Shown: positions 1-27,222, counted from the stretch's first letter. The stretch is 64,000 bases of DNA from a virus (IMGVR_UViG_3300045988_051734:36921-100920); one strand, 5' to 3'. Made by a program: numbers and translations. The notes: a model not told the origin generated them from the sequence alone.

Positions 1-2241
1 CGTTTTGCGGCATTTACCGATTAGCTAGATCATAATACTTCGGTTCTTGATACTATCAAGGAGCTTTATAATTTACAAGGTGTAACTTATAAGACTGCGA
101 ATGGATTTAATCGTCTACAGAAGGTTAGTCAAGAAAAGCTCGAAGCACAAGTCGCTTCTGCTAAGCTCCAGAGAGGTTGGTATGAAGAGGCCGCTAAGAG
201 ACTTGAAACCGCACAAGCAAACCTCGATGCTTTAAATGGTGATGAAAGCGATATTCGCTATGATGCACTCAAGAAAGCAAGAGATGCATATCTGGAGCAA
301 TTTAACGATGCTCAAGAGGCTTATTTATCTTCTGCTCAAGAAGCAATGGAGACCGCACAAGATATGTATCTCGATCAGATCGAGAGAGCGGTTTATAAGT
401 TCGGTCAAGCGGTATCTAATGGCGCAGGTCTTGATTTACTGCAAGATAAATACGACCATTATATCGAACAAAATGAGCGCTACTTTGACAAGGTTAATGA
501 GGCATATCAAGTCTCTGCTTGGTATAATAAGCTACAAAAAGATATTGATGATACTACCAATTCCGCGCATAAAGAAAGATTAAAGGCTCTACAGGAAGAG
601 ATTAATCAGCGTAGAGAAAGTAATAAGCTATCTCAATATGATCTAGATATCCTCAATGCTAAATATCAAGTATTGCAGGCTTAGATGGCTCTTGAAGACG
701 CGCAAAATGCGAAGAATCAAATTCAGCTAACAAGAGATAGTCAAGGTAACTGGAACTATCAGTTCACAGCTAACCAAGACGATATTGCGAATGCTCAGCA
801 AAAGTTGCTTGATGCCGAGAATGAATGGTACAATATAGCTAAACAGCAAGTAACTGATGTTACTGGTGAGATTGTAGACACTTGGCAAGAATGTTAGGAT
901 AAGATTAAGGACATCTATTCTGACATGACTCTAACTGATGAAGAACGTTCTGCGCGAGCACAAGAAATCTATCAGTATTATACTGAAAAGATTAAATCTC
1001 TTGAAGAAGAGAAGTAGAATGCAATCGCAGACATGACCGAAGCTGGCAATAAGAACCTGATTGATAATGCCATTCTTACCGGCGATACCATTACTGATGT
1101 AACGGGTATCACCTCTGAGGAATTGCAACAGATAGTGGCAAATTCTGGAGAAAGTATCAAGGATCTATTATTAAAGAACAGCGAATAGCTAAAAGATATT
1201 GTTGGTGATAATACAGATTTAATTGATAAATTTGATAATACTTACGCTAAAGACCTTGATAATATGACACAGAATACTACAAACTTCGAGGAGCAACTCC
1301 GCAGTTTGTTAGATGAAGCGCAACAGCATTTCCAGAATTATCAAGATAAAGTTTAGAATGTTGCTTCTGAAACTGGCTCTACTCTTGATAATTTGGCTAA
1401 TGAAACTGACAAGGTTTCTGAGTCTACAGATCAACTTGCTCAGCGTGGTCAAGAGGCTTCTGAAGCTCTATGGGATCAAGTTACCGCGGCACAATAGGCT
1501 GCGGATCAGTACGCGGCTCTAGCTGCTCAGATTTGGGAAGCTGTAGAAGCAGCGAAAACCCTTGCCGCTCAAATGGCATCGAATGCTGCTAGTAATTCTG
1601 GACTCTTGTATGACAAGAATACAGACTATAAAGCATTGATCGAACAAGGTTTGGTTAATGGTTGGTTCCAGTATGGTGATGAAACCTTTAAGGCTTTAGT
1701 AGCACAACGTGATGAGAAGATTAAGAACGAAGATAAGTGGAAAAATGAGACTCAAGGCGGAGAGCAATTTAAGGATTATACACAGGGTTCTAACGTTGGA
1801 GAATGGGCGCAAGGTCGTTACGATACTTAGGATAAGTGGAATGATGCTCTTGATAAACTGAAAAAGAATTATGGCTTAGCAACAGGCGGTTATACTGGTA
1901 CTTTTGAAGATGCAAAACTCGCGTTCTTGCATGAAAAGGAACTAGTATTGAATAAAGAAGATACCGAAAATATCTTGGCTGCCGTTCAAGCAGTAAGAAC
2001 CATTGGTTCTGACTTGTTCAAGTCTATTGAGAAGTCTCTTGATGGTAATGTAGTCGCGGCGATGAACCTTATGGGTCAGCGACTCAATCCTGTTTCCACT
2101 ATGCCAACAGAAGGTACTATCGAACAGACTGTTCATATTGACAAAGTAGAATTCCCGAATGTTACTAGCCGTTCGGAAATTGAAGAAGCATTTATTAGTC
2201 TTACTAATGATGCAGCACAGTGGGCTAGAAGAAAGACGTAA
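1..2241 (+). CDS. Tail tape measure protein, C-terminal part. The gene starts upstream of the window. Read with TAG as sense; 8 in-frame TAG; terminates TAA.
   Basis: Frame 1 is open from nt 1 to the TAA at 2239-2241 if TAG is read through. In-frame TAGs are at 22, 682, 895, 1015, 1186, 1354, 1495 and 1828. The sequence is A/Q/E/K-rich coiled coil. The gene is long and sits immediately upstream of the tail/baseplate genes. Confidence 0.55.
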
Positions 2242-2292
2242 TAAGGAGAGGTTTAAACCTCTCCTTATTATAGGAGTGAAAGGAGATAAACA

Positions 2293-5200
2293 ATGAATAA
2301 TATATCTGAACAGCTGTTGCAAGCTATGGATATTATTGCTCAAGAAAAGTTGAAATAGCTCCAATATGATAAAACTATTCAAGCTACAATCTATTCTATC
2401 GTAGATGCTGATACCGGAGAATATAAAGTCAGATACAATGGAAATATTTTTTCCGCGTTTAGCGAGGATACTAGCAAAAGCTACTCTGTTGACGATATTA
2501 TTTATGTCAAAGTTCCTGAAGGTAACTTTTCTAACAAGAAATTGATTACCTCCTTGGTAACCGCGAAATCTTTATCAAGCGCGCAAATATCTGATTTAAC
2601 TAATTCTGTATTTGAAGTATCTCCTGCATTTGATGCACTATATGGTAATGCTTATGACCCAAGTGAGAGCTATGGAGTAATTGCGGGCGCGCCAGCTGGG
2701 GAGATCGGTAGTTTTGTCTACATCTTTTAGAATGATGAAGAATATAATCCAAATGGCTACCACGGATTGTTCCAGCAGTATGCGAACAATTACGAATATA
2801 TTAGAGTTAAAGCATCTTTCTTAACACAATTCCATAATGTGCATAGTAAAGGTAATTACGGTATTGAAATTGAGTTTTATACCAAGGATAATAGTAGCGT
2901 AAGTTATAGATTAGATCTCTAGAATTTTAATGGTAATCCATATGGATTCTCGGTCTACTCGCCGCAATCAATTATCTTAAAGGCGCAGAAGAACTATTTA
3001 ATGGGACTTAAATCTATTAAGCTCTTTGAAGAAGATTTTGTCTACGATAAGATTGTTAAGAATGGCATAGTTACAGATGAAGAGAACACAACTGTTGCTA
3101 ACATTTTTGTGAAAGATATTTCTCTTCAATATGTTGATTTGCAAGATCTAAGTGATACGAGTTATTACCTCACAATTTCTGCACCTAAAGGCATTGCTTT
3201 TACGGATAAGGTGTCAACTCTAGAATTGATTGGCCGTTTAATTTATAATGGCGATGATATTATGGATAGTAAGAATTGCGTTTGCCAATGGTATGAGAGA
3301 GATCTGAGCGTGGTTGTTGGTAGCGATAAGTATGTCAAAGCCGCAGGTTTCGGTTGGAAGAAAATGGATAAGCGGACTTCTGATACTCTTACTCTTGATG
3401 CAACCGATGTACTCTATCAATAGAGATATAAATTAGTAGTTGTTTATAATAATAATGTTACTCTAACTGCGGAGATTGCGGTTTGGAACCGTAATTCTAA
3501 CTATGATTATTCTATTGTTCAAGTAACTGATGGCGCGGATATTAAATTGTAGATTAAAAATAATTACGATGATGAATCTCTGGTCGGTGACTGGTACTTG
3601 TCTTACCCAGATGATAGTTACAGTTCTGTGCCGGAAGGAGAAAAGTAGTCAGAGATAGTTGTAAGTTCTTATCTGCAATATAGCTCTGTAATCTTCTATT
3701 GCATGGTATATAATTCTTTTGGTGAATATATCGGTACACTTGAACATACTATTGTGAATAGTGAAAGCGAAGATGATGTAACTATTAGCTATATTGGTGA
3801 AGACTCTTTTCGCTATGATGCTAATGGAGATATTTCTATCGAAGACGCAGAGAAAGAGCGTACCCTATAGGTTAATCTAGCCTGGAAGGAAGGCTTCGGC
3901 ACTTCTTACTTTGTATCATGGTTAATGAAAGATGCAGCGAATAAAGAGTACGAGATTCCTACCTCTAAATCTAAAGCCTACAATCCGGATAACTCCATGC
4001 TTGAGAATATTTGGGTTGACAATTATAATATTTTGCACTACAATATTAAATAGAAATACAGAGTTAATTTCAGTAATAACACTATAATTGTAAAGATTAG
4101 AACTATTGCTGAATCTACTTATTTATTTAATAAAGAGATTCTTTGCTTGAAGGATGGCGACTAGGGTACTAATGGTACTACTTATATCACAGCGATTCGT
4201 CCTTGTAATTCTGAGGGTGTAAAACTTAGTGGTTTACAGCCTTTGAGATATAACAATAGTTGGTAGAATACTCTACAGGTTCGTTGTTATGTCTATAAAG
4301 ATGGAGAATTAATTAACGGTAATAAGAAGTATTCTATTACTTACAAATGGGAAGGAATTAATGTATTTGTACAAGACCGAGAGATCTTAACAGATACTAC
4401 TGACCAAGTTATCGTGCGTGGTAAAGATCCTATCTCTGAAAGTAGTCCAAGCGCGCAATTAGCATTCTATGTAAAGGTTCAAGTAACCATTAAAGATGCT
4501 AATAGTTCCGTGGATATTTACGCTTCTTATCCTATTGATGTAATTCTAGGCACTGCCTCTGTTGATGACATTAATATTGATAGTATTCCTTCTTATATCA
4601 AGTACAATTCCGCAGGTCTGACACCATCTTTTTATAGCAATGATATTAACTTCTATTATAAGACTAATATTTATAATGACAACATTGTATCGCTTAATAC
4701 GAATATCCTAAGTATTGTAACTAGCAATGGTAAGAAATATTTAGAGCCAGCTTCTAATTTCATCTTTGAGAGTATTAAGGATAATTCGCAGAGCAATATA
4801 GGCGTATTAAGTTTTGCTATTCCGGATAGTAATGATAGACTTATTCATCCTATTGTTATGTATCTTGATACTTACGGCAACGAAGCTATTAATGGCTGGG
4901 ATGGTACTGCTCTTGATACTGGCGATGGAAAGTATGTATTTGCTCCGCAAGTTGGCGCGGGATCAAAAGACAGCTAGAATAGATTTACTGGCGTTGTAAT
5001 GGGTAAAGATAGTGGGCAAAATTAGATAGGTCTATATGGCTATCAGGCAGGTGTTAATGTCTTTGGCTTAATGGAAGACGGTACCGCATTCTTTGGAGCC
5101 ATGAGTGGTGGCGGCCGCATTGATATTAATGGTAAATCTGGTTCTATCAGCGGCGGTGGTGGTGGAGATAATTCCATCGGCATGACCATTAATCTTGCTG

Positions 5201-26872: not shown

Positions 26873-27197
26873 CATTAATGGAGTGAGTTGGAGAGTATTG
26901 CTAGTACCTCCAACTTCTTCTTCTCTTGCTAGAAGCGATGGAAGTTATGCTTCTGGCGTTTGTGATAATGATACTAAATGTATCTATATCAATTAGAATT
27001 TATCCTCTTCTATGATGAAGAGAGTGTTGTGCCACGAGGTAACTCATGCTGCTATGTTCAGCTATGAGACAGAATTAACCGTTGAACAAGAGGAGCTATT
27101 ATCTGATTTAATAGCTACTTATGGCGAGGAAATAATTTCCAAAACCAATGAAATATTTAGACGGTTAAAAGTAAAAAACGGGGACTTGTCAAATTAA
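26865..27197 (+). CDS. Small HExxH-motif protein (putative metallopeptidase-like), 110 codons, 1 TAG.
   Basis: Track ORF 27012-27197 contains LCHEVTHAAM. The frame extends upstream through the TAG at 26994 to an ATG at 26865 that overlaps the previous stop (ATGCTTAA). Confidence 0.4.
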
Positions 27198-27222
27198 GAC
27201 AAGTCCCCGTTTTTTTTTATTG
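27173..27222. terminator. Strong bidirectional rho-independent terminator at the junction of the two convergent arms.
   Basis: cggggacttgtc-aaattaa-gacaagtccccg followed by T9. Confidence 0.65.

What the first reader, a model, noticed from the sequence alone, without database searches (positions are those of the whole stretch)
1..27220. Amber (TAG) codon is read as sense, probably Gln, throughout the late module; standard-code annotation shatters the genes
Under the standard code the late arm has no long ORFs. Reading through TAG alone yields single genes in one frame each. Examples:
- TMP from nt 1 to 2241 with 8 TAG.
- 2293-6288 with about 17 TAG.
- 7612-10368 with about 18 TAG.
- 10374-12278.
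- 12886-14826.

In every case the listed track ORF fragments share a frame and each ends exactly at a TAG. The extra TAGs in the gaps fall in that same frame. No TAA or TGA intervenes. The restored gene ends in TAA. No gene in the whole window requires TAG as its terminator.

Three TAG positions align with conserved residues:
- RT motif 1 DRLV-[TAG]-NAL against canonical DRxVQxAL.
- Serine recombinase LDR-[TAG]-IIAL against gamma-delta/Hin LDIQ(V/R)xAL.
- RecJ N-terminus AIE-[TAG]-VLTNRGI.

This fits code-15-type amber-to-Gln recoding known from some gut phages. Here it is tied to an identifiable phage with a DGR and a full replisome. No suppressor tRNA(CUA) gene and no release-factor gene is visible in this window.
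Basis: partly seen in the sequence, partly recalled or inferred. Interest (0 to 1): 0.85.

Follow-up and report, generated by a model that had tools for sequence, protein, structure and literature searches.

The report
Amber codon read as glutamine in phage
This piece of a roughly 145-kb human-gut phage genome uses the stop codon TAG as a glutamine codon in its tail, lysis and some DNA-processing genes, read by a phage-carried suppressor tRNA; this is a real but already described kind of genetic-code switch in a clade that has not been described.

Summary
With TAG read as sense, ORF coverage of window 1-27220 rises from 45% to 94%. Making TGA or TAA sense does not rescue it (50%, 66%). Nine abutting + strand tail genes carry 1-17 in-frame TAG each and no TAA/TGA. 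All 64 gene calls end in TAA or TGA.

The amino acid is glutamine. In IMG/VR relatives, window TAG codons align mostly with TAG (871) or CAA/CAG (567), with K/E/S next and Y/W near zero. Against standard-code proteins, TAG falls on Q in Sin recombinase (3 of 5), the BPP-1-type RT motif DRLVQ, and 7 of 25 sites in Enterococcus phage VRE9_2.

The window holds no tRNA or release-factor gene. Its 96.6%-identical relative carries one tRNA(CUA) about 31 kb beyond the window end, inside a large tRNA array.

- 2293-6288 has 12 TAG, not about 17.
- TAG genes also lie outside 1-27220: RuvC, RecJ, two homing endonucleases and a holin-like gene.
- The RecJ site is Gln only within the clade.

This is a new member of the known code-15 phages (Borges 2021; Babkin 2023, phAss-1). 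The fresher details are a five-armed suppressor tRNA and an N-proximal TAG in RecJ.

The parts
1..2241 (+). C-terminal 746 codons of the tape measure protein; 8 in-frame TAG; ends in TAA
   Evidence: PHROG 34405 tape measure, E 6e-24. The full gene in relative L033 is 2897 codons with 33 TAG.
2293..6288 (+). 1331-codon tail gene; 12 TAG; ends in TAA
   Evidence: no PHROG match
6300..7130 (+). 276-codon gene; 7 TAG (64% of its Gln-type codons)
7612..10368 (+). 918-codon tail/baseplate gene; 17 TAG
   Evidence: PHROG 30026; homologue in VRE9_2
10374..12278 (+). 634-codon tail protein; 9 TAG; used to fetch relatives
   Evidence: PHROG 32343/1887; 32 related loci; 35% aa identity to phAss-1
12292..12873 (+). 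193-codon gene; 3 TAG
12886..14826 (+). 646-codon gene; 9 TAG
14862..15626 (+). tail-fibre-like gene; 1 TAG
   Evidence: PHROG 1591; RBS-supported ATG
16772..18037 (-). DGR reverse transcriptase; 8 TAG, one in motif DRLV-TAG-NAL
   Evidence: PHROG 1423, E 7e-81; aligns to DRLVQHAL of 8ub7
19018..20733 (-). DGR target gene (VR at 19032-19137); 1 TAG
21167..23004 (+). two tail-fibre-region genes (21167-22297 and 22312-23004); 3 TAG each
   Evidence: PHROG 1348/24451
23077..23682 (+). serine recombinase/invertase; GTG start; 6 TAG
   Evidence: Sin/gamma-delta family, E 4e-31. Five of the 6 TAG lie within the aligned span, and 3 of those 5 fall on Q of Sin. Start and RBS.
24297..27197 (+). small late-arm genes with TAG: 24297-24674 (4), 24688-24921 (3), 24951-25802 (1), 26865-27197 (1). 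They are interspersed with TAG-free ORFs.
27217..28203 (-). first genes of the opposite arm: 27217-27648 (4 TAG) and RuvC-like resolvase 27724-28203 (6 TAG)
   Evidence: PHROG 159/827; 2 of the aligned RuvC TAG fall on Q in VRE9_2
38107..38856 (-). HNH homing endonuclease; 4 TAG; sits between TAG-free polymerase and helicase
   Evidence: PHROG 374; 2 TAG fall on Q in VRE9_2
40937..42685 (-). RecJ-like exonuclease; a single TAG at codon 18, downstream of an AAGGAGG-ATG start
   Evidence: PHROG 2484, E 5e-152; start. All 19 full-length clade orthologues carry TAG at codon 4 and/or 18.
48619..50473 (-). 48619-49257 (1 TAG, codon 34); 49260-49562 (1 TAG, codon 22); GIY-YIG endonuclease fusion 49562-50473 (13 TAG)
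57242..57586 (-). 114-codon two-helix membrane protein (putative holin); 5 TAG; overlaps the end of the amidase gene
   Evidence: No family match; the holin call is inferred from position and hydrophobic segments.
57567..58310 (-). TAG-free putative N-acetylmuramoyl-L-alanine amidase (endolysin)
   Evidence: Called from the translation by eye (amidase_2/PGRP-like); this protein was not scanned against any family library. 0 TAG.
31300..38048 (-). TAG-free replication block: NrdD, a 201-aa gene and the Pol III alpha-type polymerase
   Evidence: Pfam NRDD; polymerase 39% identical to EF1/SPbeta polymerases; 0 TAG
42697..48546 (-). TAG-free block: DnaB helicase, Sak4-like ATPase and others
51080..57104 (-). 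TAG-free block: DNA ligase, gyrase A and gyrase B
   Evidence: TAG-free in 20-26 relatives, apart from 3 loci at one gyrA site and 1 locus at one site of the downstream 167-aa gene 56601-57104.

Best explanation
The window is 64 kb of a roughly 145-kb siphovirus-type phage of human-gut Bacillota. In this phage UAG is decoded as glutamine (translation table 15).

Shown:
- TAG sits in frame in 19 of 25 ORFs of the tail/late arm. It also sits in a defined subset of genes on the other arm: RuvC, RecJ, two homing endonucleases, a holin-like gene and a few small genes.
- The core replication genes contain no TAG at all.
- No gene ends in TAG.
- TAG exchanges freely with CAA/CAG among relatives.
- The nearest relative genome (96.6% nt identity) carries one tRNA with anticodon CUA, in a tRNA array on the early strand.

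Inferred:
- The suppressor tRNA is charged with Gln by a host enzyme and competes with host RF1.
- Only then can full-length tail proteins, the DGR reverse transcriptase, the invertase, the late DNA-processing nucleases and the holin-like protein be made.
- The code switch therefore acts as a translational timer for assembly and lysis.
For: ORF structure:
- Coverage is 45% under code 11 and 94% under code 15, and the other two stop codons do not rescue it.
- 0 in-frame TAA/TGA in 5113 codons against about 251 expected.
- Stops are 54 TAA, 10 TGA and 0 TAG.

Amino-acid identity:
- Window TAG versus relatives gives TAG 871, Gln 567 (CAA 391, CAG 176), K 157, E 119, S 97, Y 1, W 0. In HSPs of at least 85% identity, Q accounts for 85 of 106 non-TAG partners.
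- The Q model has the best likelihood by a wide margin.
- In RecJ orthologues, relative-only TAGs sit on window CAG/CAA, with one TTG exception in a single locus.
- Standard-code anchors: Sin recombinase 3 of 5 Q; bRT DRLVQ; VRE9_2 7 of 25 Q against 4.6% background, P = 1e-4.

Code-neutral early genes:
- 25 genes with 308 CAA/CAG codons have 0 TAG. P is about 1e-41 at the late-arm TAG share of 26.5%.
- This pattern is conserved in 12-26 relatives.

Suppressor tRNA:
- tRNA(CUA) at L221 7911-8001 on contig 055134, and at L212 4376-4466.
- Rfam tRNA model scores it 53.6 bits.

Published precedent:
- Borges et al. preprint, Babkin et al. 2023 and the Peters et al. 2022 proteomics abstract.
Against: - There is no protein-level evidence for this phage.
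- The suppressor tRNA is not in the window. It is inferred from a 96.6%-identical relative.
- About 23 kb of that relative's genome could not be fetched.
- The tRNA is non-canonical: it has a 17-nt extra arm and a U1.C72 mismatch. Its charging with Gln is inferred from codon-exchange data and from E. coli identity rules, not shown.
- No RF2 or aminoacyl-tRNA synthetase gene was found, so competition with host RF1 is unexplained.
- The timer model is imperfect. The endolysin is TAG-free, six late-arm ORFs have no TAG, and expression timing was not measured.
Confidence: 0.88

Rival explanations
1. TAG is sense but encodes another amino acid. Candidates are Ser, Leu or Tyr, because the only suppressor found has a long extra arm like class II tRNAs, or pyrrolysine, which is how ARAGORN labels CUA anticodons.
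For: The tRNA(CUA) has a 4-5 bp extra arm. ARAGORN calls it tRNA-Pyl. Ser is the fourth most common partner of TAG.
Against: - Q is the dominant partner at all divergence levels. CAA, two mutational steps from TAG, is more common than CAG, so this is not mere mutational proximity.
- Y is 1, W is 0 and L is 28 out of 1288.
- TAG falls on invariant Q of the RT and recombinase motifs.
- The tRNA has a 4-bp D stem and G73. By E. coli identity rules (my knowledge), G73 argues against Leu and Tyr.
- Its extra arm has 5-6 unpaired 3' bases, unlike the phage's own tRNA-Ser.
Confidence: 0.04
2. The host bacterium itself reads UAG as glutamine. The phage then simply matches its host, and no code switch occurs during infection.
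For: The host is unknown. Relatives co-bin with Oscillospiraceae, Eubacterium and Clostridia MAGs. No release-factor gene was found in the phage.
Against: - 25 replication/early genes with 308 Gln codons contain no TAG, and this is conserved across relatives. That makes sense only if these genes must be read where UAG is a stop.
- The phage carries its own tRNA(CUA).
- Published surveys assign code-15 phages to standard-code Firmicutes and Bacteroidetes hosts.
Confidence: 0.04
3. The TAGs are true stops. The late arm would then be decayed or pseudogenised, or the result of assembly error, or expressed only by low-level leaky read-through.
For: Standard-code annotation gives only fragments. GenBank annotates phAss-1 in the same fragmented way.
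Against: - Only TAG interrupts the frames: there are 0 TAA/TGA in 5113 codons.
- 40% of aligned TAG sites are conserved as TAG in relatives from many independent metagenomes.
- The restored proteins match tail, RT, recombinase and RecJ families end to end.
- 17 read-throughs in one gene is impossible by leakiness.
Confidence: 0.01

Closest known systems
Code-15 (TAG to Gln) recoded gut phages: crAss-like, Lak, Agate, Garnet and Amethyst clades (Borges et al., bioRxiv 10.1101/2021.08.26.457843; Peters et al. 2022, PMC9523058)
   Same: In-frame TAG is concentrated in structural and lysis genes, early genes are standard-code compatible, the phage encodes a tRNA(CUA), and TAG aligns with Gln. Hosts are predicted to use the standard code.
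   Different: The lineage differs: it is an EF1/SPbeta-like Pol III alpha replisome phage of about 145 kb. No RF2 or synthetase was found. The endolysin is TAG-free, while a holin-like gene, RecJ and RuvC are recoded. Membership of any named gem clade was not testable because no terminase tree could be built.
Phage phAss-1 / proposed genus Phassvirus (OQ749652; Babkin et al. 2023, PMC10607447; NCBI 'Caudoviricetes code 15 clade')
   Same: It comes from the human gut, is about 136 kb, has a roughly 3000-aa tape measure protein, and has TAG in about 40 ORFs. It carries a large tRNA array on the early strand, a homologous long-armed tRNA-Sup-CTA, and no dedicated synthetase. A Clostridia host is suspected.
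   Different: Only 35% aa identity in the tail protein, and no megablast match. phAss-1 has three Sup-CTA genes, two of them next to nrdD, whereas this clade shows one, in the main array. The window phage also has a DGR and an invertase in the tail region.
Enterococcus phages EF1 / VRE9_1-4 (standard code, cultured)
   Same: The arms are syntenic: TMP and tail genes on one strand; RuvC, polymerase, Dda helicase, RecJ, DnaB and Sak4 on the other. Identity is 31-39% aa.
   Different: There is no in-frame TAG, so they serve as the standard-code outgroup.
E. coli supE (tRNA-Gln with anticodon CUA), the classical Gln-inserting amber suppressor (textbook knowledge)
   Same: It has a CUA anticodon, G73 and a weak 1:72 pair, and inserts Gln in competition with RF1.
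   Different: supE is an ordinary 75-nt class I tRNA. The phage tRNA carries an extra 4-5 bp arm, and its charging enzyme is unknown.

Membership tests
Code-15 (amber to Gln) recoded phage | Conserved genes are interrupted only by in-frame TAG, never by TAA/TGA, and become full-length when TAG is sense | tested here: met
   family matches
Code-15 (amber to Gln) recoded phage | TAG positions correspond to Gln in homologues | tested here: met
   Relatives; solved structures; standard-code phage VRE9_2
Code-15 (amber to Gln) recoded phage | TAG is not used as a terminator | tested here: met
   54 TAA, 10 TGA, 0 TAG
Code-15 (amber to Gln) recoded phage | Phage-encoded suppressor tRNA with anticodon CUA | tested here: inconclusive
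   Absent from the window. Present in the 96.6%-identical relative contig and in a second close relative. The window's own genome beyond 64 kb could not be read.
Code-15 (amber to Gln) recoded phage | Recoding concentrated in late/structural/lysis genes, with code-neutral early genes | tested here: met
   Exceptions: the endolysin is TAG-free; RecJ, RuvC and the homing endonucleases are recoded.
Code-15 (amber to Gln) recoded phage | Gln found at TAG positions in the proteins | not testable with these tools
   Needs proteomics, as in PMC9523058
Code-15 (amber to Gln) recoded phage | Accessory code-change genes (RF2, aminoacyl-tRNA synthetase); present in only a minority of published cases | tested here: not met
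   No RF1/RF2 homologue in the window or in 4.5 Mb of fetched loci. 23 kb of the relative genome was not seen, and no search was made for synthetases.
Genus Phassvirus (phAss-1) | Genus-level nucleotide similarity (the three published members share 80-86% nt identity) | tested here: not met
   No megablast hit; 35% aa identity in the tail protein
Genus Phassvirus (phAss-1) | Membership of the wider EF1 / PMBT10 / phAss-1 monophyletic group (shared synteny and marker proteins) | tested here: inconclusive
   Best GenBank hits are phAss-1 and the EF1/VRE9 phages. Synteny with VRE9_2 is clear. No phylogeny was built.
Pyrrolysine decoding of UAG | tRNA-Pyl architecture and Pyl-type use of UAG | tested here: not met
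   The tRNA fits the general tRNA model with a 17-nt extra arm. TAG exchanges with CAA/CAG. No search was made for pyl genes.
Diversity-generating retroelement (seen in passing) | RT plus a TR/VR pair that differ only at TR adenines | tested here: met
   RT. TR 18294-18399 and VR 19032-19137, with 16 of 16 mismatches at TR adenines.

The most novel reading that the evidence does not exclude
The only amber suppressor detected in this clade is a non-canonical five-armed tRNA. It has a class I body (4-bp D stem, Gln/Glu-like D loop), anticodon CUA, G73, an unpaired or weak 1:72 pair, and an inserted 4-5 bp extra arm.

The same design recurs in at least 19 IMG/VR contigs from several code-15 clades, including Phassvirus, and the extra-arm stem shows compensatory changes. 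If this tRNA is the Gln-inserting decoder, it would be a dedicated, possibly RF1-competitive or host-orthogonal, suppressor architecture. I found no description of it in the searchable literature.

A second detail fits the same picture. Every one of 19 RecJ orthologues keeps a TAG within its first 18 codons, which suggests that single N-proximal ambers serve as deliberate translational gates on selected genes of the otherwise code-neutral arm.
Probability: 0.35. Interest if true: 0.55.

Novelty: new member of a known kind. Interest (0 to 1): 0.33.

Why it matters
**Practical.** Standard-code annotation destroys more than half of the coding content of the late arm. The same happened to phAss-1 in GenBank. 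This clade is common in human-gut assemblies: dozens of 140-148 kb contigs were found. Its tail, DGR and lysis genes will be missed unless table 15 is used.

**Biological.** It adds a Bacillota-infecting, EF1/SPbeta-like lineage to the phages that switch the code during infection. It also gives a clean partition of genes into two classes:
- TAG-free: polymerase, helicases, ligase, gyrase, NrdD and endolysin.
- TAG-bearing: virion genes, DGR RT, invertase, RuvC, RecJ and the holin-like gene.

That partition can be used to test the translational-timer hypothesis.

**tRNA.** The unusual suppressor tRNA is a concrete candidate for biochemical study and for orthogonal-tRNA engineering.

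Tried and rejected
- **Megablast** of window 1-25000 against INPHARED phages found no hit.
- **Exact-protein look-up** of the PhoH-like gene was not on record, so the source contig could not be fetched directly.
- **tRNA search** in the window and in 70+ flanking loci (and the tail side) found none. The array was reached only after walking about 25-35 kb beyond the window end.
- **phAss-1 synteny** suggested tRNAs next to nrdD or just past NAMPT. Neither holds in this clade.
- **Release factors:** none found.
- **Rfam** on the window found nothing.
- **Extra-arm covariation:** the MAFFT alignment of the long suppressor tRNAs put the extra arm out of register. I therefore compared stems by eye and did not run a formal covariation count.
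- **Pyl, Ser, Leu and Tyr readings** of TAG were rejected on the codon-exchange data.
- **A shorter RecJ starting after the TAG** was considered and rejected. The only RBS-supported start is upstream of the TAG, and the N-terminus is homologous to VRE9_2 RecJ.
- **Two apparent TAGs in 29642-30286** were set aside, because an RBS-supported ATG lies downstream of them.

Full report
**1. The observation**

The window is 64 kb with 38% G+C.

Under the standard code, the + strand of 1-15626 holds only fragments, most of which end at TAG. Allowing TAG as sense joins them into nine abutting genes:

| Gene | In-frame TAG |
|---|---|
| 1-2241 | 8 |
| 2293-6288 | 12 |
| 6300-7130 | 7 |
| 7168-7515 | 0 |
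| 7612-10368 | 17 |
| 10374-12278 | 9 |
| 12292-12873 | 3 |
| 12886-14826 | 9 |
| 14862-15626 | 1 |

All nine end in TAA.

A greedy ORF call covers 45% of 1-27220 under code 11 and 94% under code 15. Making TGA or TAA sense instead gives 50% and 66%.

These nine genes span 5113 codons with no TAA or TGA. About 251 would be expected from the local frequency of those triplets.

Across the window, 64 gene calls end in TAA (54) or TGA (10), and none in TAG.

**2. What the genes are**

PHROG and Pfam scans identify the following:
- Late arm: the tape measure protein, tail and tail-fibre proteins, a DGR reverse transcriptase, and a serine recombinase.
- Opposite strand: RuvC, NrdD, a Pol III alpha-type polymerase, a Dda-like helicase, RecJ, DnaB, a Sak4-like ATPase, ligase, gyrase A and B, and an SPFH protein.

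The amidase (57567-58310) and PhoH-like (58437-59807) labels rest only on my reading of the translations. Neither protein was scanned against a family library.

The layout is syntenic with Enterococcus phage VRE9_2.

The polymerase is 39% identical to those of Enterococcus phages EF1/VRE9 and of SPbeta-like Bacillus phages. The tail protein 10374-12278 has its best GenBank match, at 35% aa identity, in phage phAss-1, where the gene is annotated as five fragments.

**3. Which amino acid**

*Relatives.* IMG/VR holds 32 loci related to the tail protein at 68-98% identity, on contigs of up to 148 kb. Codon-by-codon comparison of all late genes gives, opposite window TAGs:

| Partner | Count |
|---|---|
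| TAG | 871 |
| Gln | 567 (CAA 391, CAG 176) |
| Lys | 157 |
| Glu | 119 |
| Ser | 97 |
| Leu | 28 |
| Tyr | 1 |
| Trp | 0 |

The reverse comparison is symmetrical.

In alignments of at least 85% identity, 85 of 106 non-TAG partners are Gln. A likelihood comparison with the substitution profile of each amino acid picks Gln by a wide margin.

CAA is two mutational steps from TAG yet is the commonest partner. The signal therefore reflects synonymy, not mutational proximity.

*Standard-code proteins.* Independent checks against standard-code proteins agree:
- In the recombinase, 3 of 5 aligned TAGs fall on Q of Sin, including LDR-TAG against LERQ.
- The RT motif DRLV-TAG-NAL aligns with DRLVQHAL of the solved DGR RT.
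- Against the cultured phage VRE9_2, 7 of 25 aligned TAG sites are Q, against a background of 4.6% (P = 1e-4).

*RecJ.* The RecJ TAG (codon 18) aligns with CAG in 13 of 19 clade orthologues and with TAG in 6. It aligns with Asn in VRE9_2.

**4. Distribution of TAG**

In 1-27220, TAG makes up 26.5% of Gln-type codons and occurs in 19 of 25 ORFs. One of those ORFs, 18001-18432, is really the DGR template repeat.

On the other arm, 25 genes with 308 CAA/CAG codons have no TAG at all (P about 1e-41 at the late-arm share). In 12-26 relatives, the polymerase, Dda, DnaB, ligase and gyrase genes stay TAG-free apart from sporadic single loci.

These genes also carry TAG:

| Gene | In-frame TAG |
|---|---|
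| RuvC, 27724-28203 | 6 |
| 27217-27648 | 4 |
| 30180-30815 | 2 |
| HNH endonuclease, 38107-38856 | 4 |
| 40066-40275 | 1 |
| RecJ | 1 |
| 48619-49257 | 1 |
| 49260-49562 | 1 |
| GIY-YIG fusion, 49562-50473 | 13 |
| two-helix membrane protein, 57242-57586 | 5 |

The last of these overlaps the end of the TAG-free amidase gene, and I read it as a holin candidate.

RecJ starts at an ATG preceded by AAGGAGG, upstream of its TAG. All 19 full-length orthologues have TAG at codon 4 and/or codon 18.

**5. How TAG is decoded**

The window has no tRNA and no release factor.

I walked along the closest relative, contig IMGVR_UViG_3300045988_055134. It is 144.6 kb and 96.6% nt identical to the window over 20 kb. 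Neither the flanks nor the head/tail side has tRNAs.

A tRNA array lies on the early strand beyond the NAMPT and AAA-ATPase genes. It contains one tRNA with anticodon CUA:
- L212 4376-4466, in a second close relative.
- L221 7911-8001, at the end of contig 055134. This is about 31 kb past the window's right end if the genome is circular. Both contig ends carry a tRNA-Ile(GAT) gene.

Properties of this tRNA:
- It is 91 nt long.
- It scores 53.6 bits on the Rfam tRNA model, with a 17-nt insertion in the variable region and a non-standard 1:72 pair.
- It folds into a five-armed cloverleaf.
- It is homologous to the long tRNA-Sup-CTA annotated in phAss-1.
- The same design occurs in 19 IMG/VR contigs, with extra-arm stems TCCT/AGGA, TCCC/GGGG, TTCC/GGAG and CTCT/AGGG.

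G73, G2:C71, a weak 1:72 pair and U35 fit the E. coli GlnRS identity set. G73 argues against Leu and Tyr identity. Both points rest on my own knowledge, not on a test.

No RF1/RF2 homologue exists in any fetched locus. About 23 kb of the relative genome remained unread.

**6. Mechanism**

*Shown:*
- TAG is a sense codon equivalent to CAA/CAG.
- A defined gene set is TAG-free.
- TAG is never a terminator.
- A phage tRNA(CUA) exists in the nearest relative.

*Inferred:*
- The TAG-free genes and the tRNA array are expressed in a standard-code host.
- The suppressor is charged with Gln by a host enzyme.
- Only then are full-length virion proteins, the DGR RT, the invertase, RuvC, RecJ and the holin-like protein made.

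This is the model proposed by Borges et al.. Peters et al. supported code 15 by proteomics for crAss-like phages. The TAG-free endolysin and the TAG-free small late ORFs show that the partition is not simply 'late equals recoded'.

**7. Comparison and novelty**

TAG-to-Gln recoding of late genes in gut phages is established.

A related group has been described. It comprises phAss-1 and two other genomes, plus a wider EF1/PMBT10 group in which some members have in-frame TAG. NCBI lists it as a 'Caudoviricetes code 15 clade'.

The window is not a Phassvirus: there is no nucleotide match, and identity is 35% aa. It belongs to the same broad kind.

Relatives co-bin with Oscillospiraceae, Eubacterium and Clostridia MAGs. 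This agrees with the Clostridia host guess for phAss-1.

I therefore file it as a new member of a known kind.

Two details seem fresh: the five-armed suppressor tRNA and the conserved N-proximal amber in RecJ. A full-text search found no phage-recoding paper that mentions a variable arm. That library is incomplete, so this is weak evidence of novelty.

**8. Verdict**

- Observation: confirmed.
- Interpretation: supported.
- Interest: moderate to low for the recoding itself. It is somewhat higher for the tRNA architecture, should that prove to be the functional Gln decoder.

Noticed in passing
window 15677-20733 (- strand): RT 16772-18037, TR 18294-18399, VR 19032-19137, target gene 19018-20733: A complete diversity-generating retroelement. 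TR and VR are 85% identical over 106 nt, and all 16 mismatches sit at TR adenines. The RT gene has 8 in-frame TAG, so mutagenic retrohoming would depend on the suppressor. The ORF 18001-18432 is just the TR.
   Followed up: yes
L221 7911-8001; L212 4376-4466; phAss-1 L090 12442-12532: The amber suppressor tRNA has a class I body plus an inserted 4-5 bp extra arm, a U1.C72 mismatch and G73. The same design is found in 19 IMG/VR contigs of several clades, with compensatory changes in the extra-arm stem. Phassvirus genomes also carry a normal-length tRNA(CUA) next to it. In this clade only the long one was seen.
   Followed up: partly
window 40937-42685; loci L242-L260: Every one of 19 full-length RecJ orthologues has TAG at codon 4 and/or codon 18. 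Other single-TAG genes on this arm also have the TAG near the 5' end (codons 22, 22 and 34). This may be a deliberate N-proximal translational gate.
   Followed up: partly
window 57242-58310: The amidase endolysin has no TAG. The overlapping downstream 114-codon two-helix membrane protein (holin candidate) has 5 TAG. Lysis timing may therefore be gated at the holin only.
   Followed up: partly
window 23077-23682, with tail-fibre genes 21167-23004: A Sin/Hin-type serine recombinase (GTG start, 6 TAG) lies next to tail-fibre genes, which suggests an invertible host-range switch. Only weak inverted repeats were found (18189/21423 and 18319/22880).
   Followed up: partly
L106 1346-1419; L211 1456-1529 (also in L107, L110, L111, L114, L115, L212): Two odd tRNA-like genes sit in the array. 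One has an 8-nt anticodon loop (GTTAAAAG, called 'taaa'). The other has a 6-nt loop containing TTTA (called 'tt'). Possible quadruplet or ochre-type decoders, or decoys.
   Followed up: no
window 38107-38856 and 49562-50473: Free-standing HNH and GIY-YIG homing endonucleases inside the TAG-free replication arm are themselves heavily recoded (4 and 13 TAG). The GIY-YIG gene has the highest TAG count of any gene on the early arm (13 in 303 codons). Its N-terminal roughly 200 aa is a coiled-coil/membrane extension.
   Followed up: partly
whole window (table): CAG is depleted where TAG is used. The late arm has CAA 183, CAG 94 and TAG 100. The other arm has CAA 180, CAG 219 and TAG 40. This fits TAG having arisen mainly from CAG. 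Two genes are extreme CAG users: 60608-62095 (29 CAG, 1 CAA) and 47199-48152 (10 CAG, 0 CAA).
   Followed up: partly
L061 2-1609; L099 1-10000: Just beyond the window end, relatives encode a nicotinamide phosphoribosyltransferase, an AAA ATPase and an exonuclease-like protein. phAss-1 has the same NAD-salvage genes next to its tRNA array.
   Followed up: no
L104 20054-20126: A more distant relative (60% identity in NAMPT) carries a tRNA with anticodon TTA, an ochre-suppressor type.
   Followed up: no
L221 8117-8193 and L211 3-79 (contig IMGVR_UViG_3300045988_055134): Both ends of the 144.6-kb contig carry a tRNA-Ile(GAT) gene of the same length, consistent with a circular or terminally redundant genome; the two copies were not aligned. 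Contig 060821 is a circular permutation of the same map.
   Followed up: partly
L262-L266: Whole-phage-sized contigs (148-158 kb) with 65-79% identical polymerases are binned into MAGs named Oscillospiraceae, Eubacterium sp., Clostridiales, Clostridia and Bacilli. This is a weak host hint.
   Followed up: no
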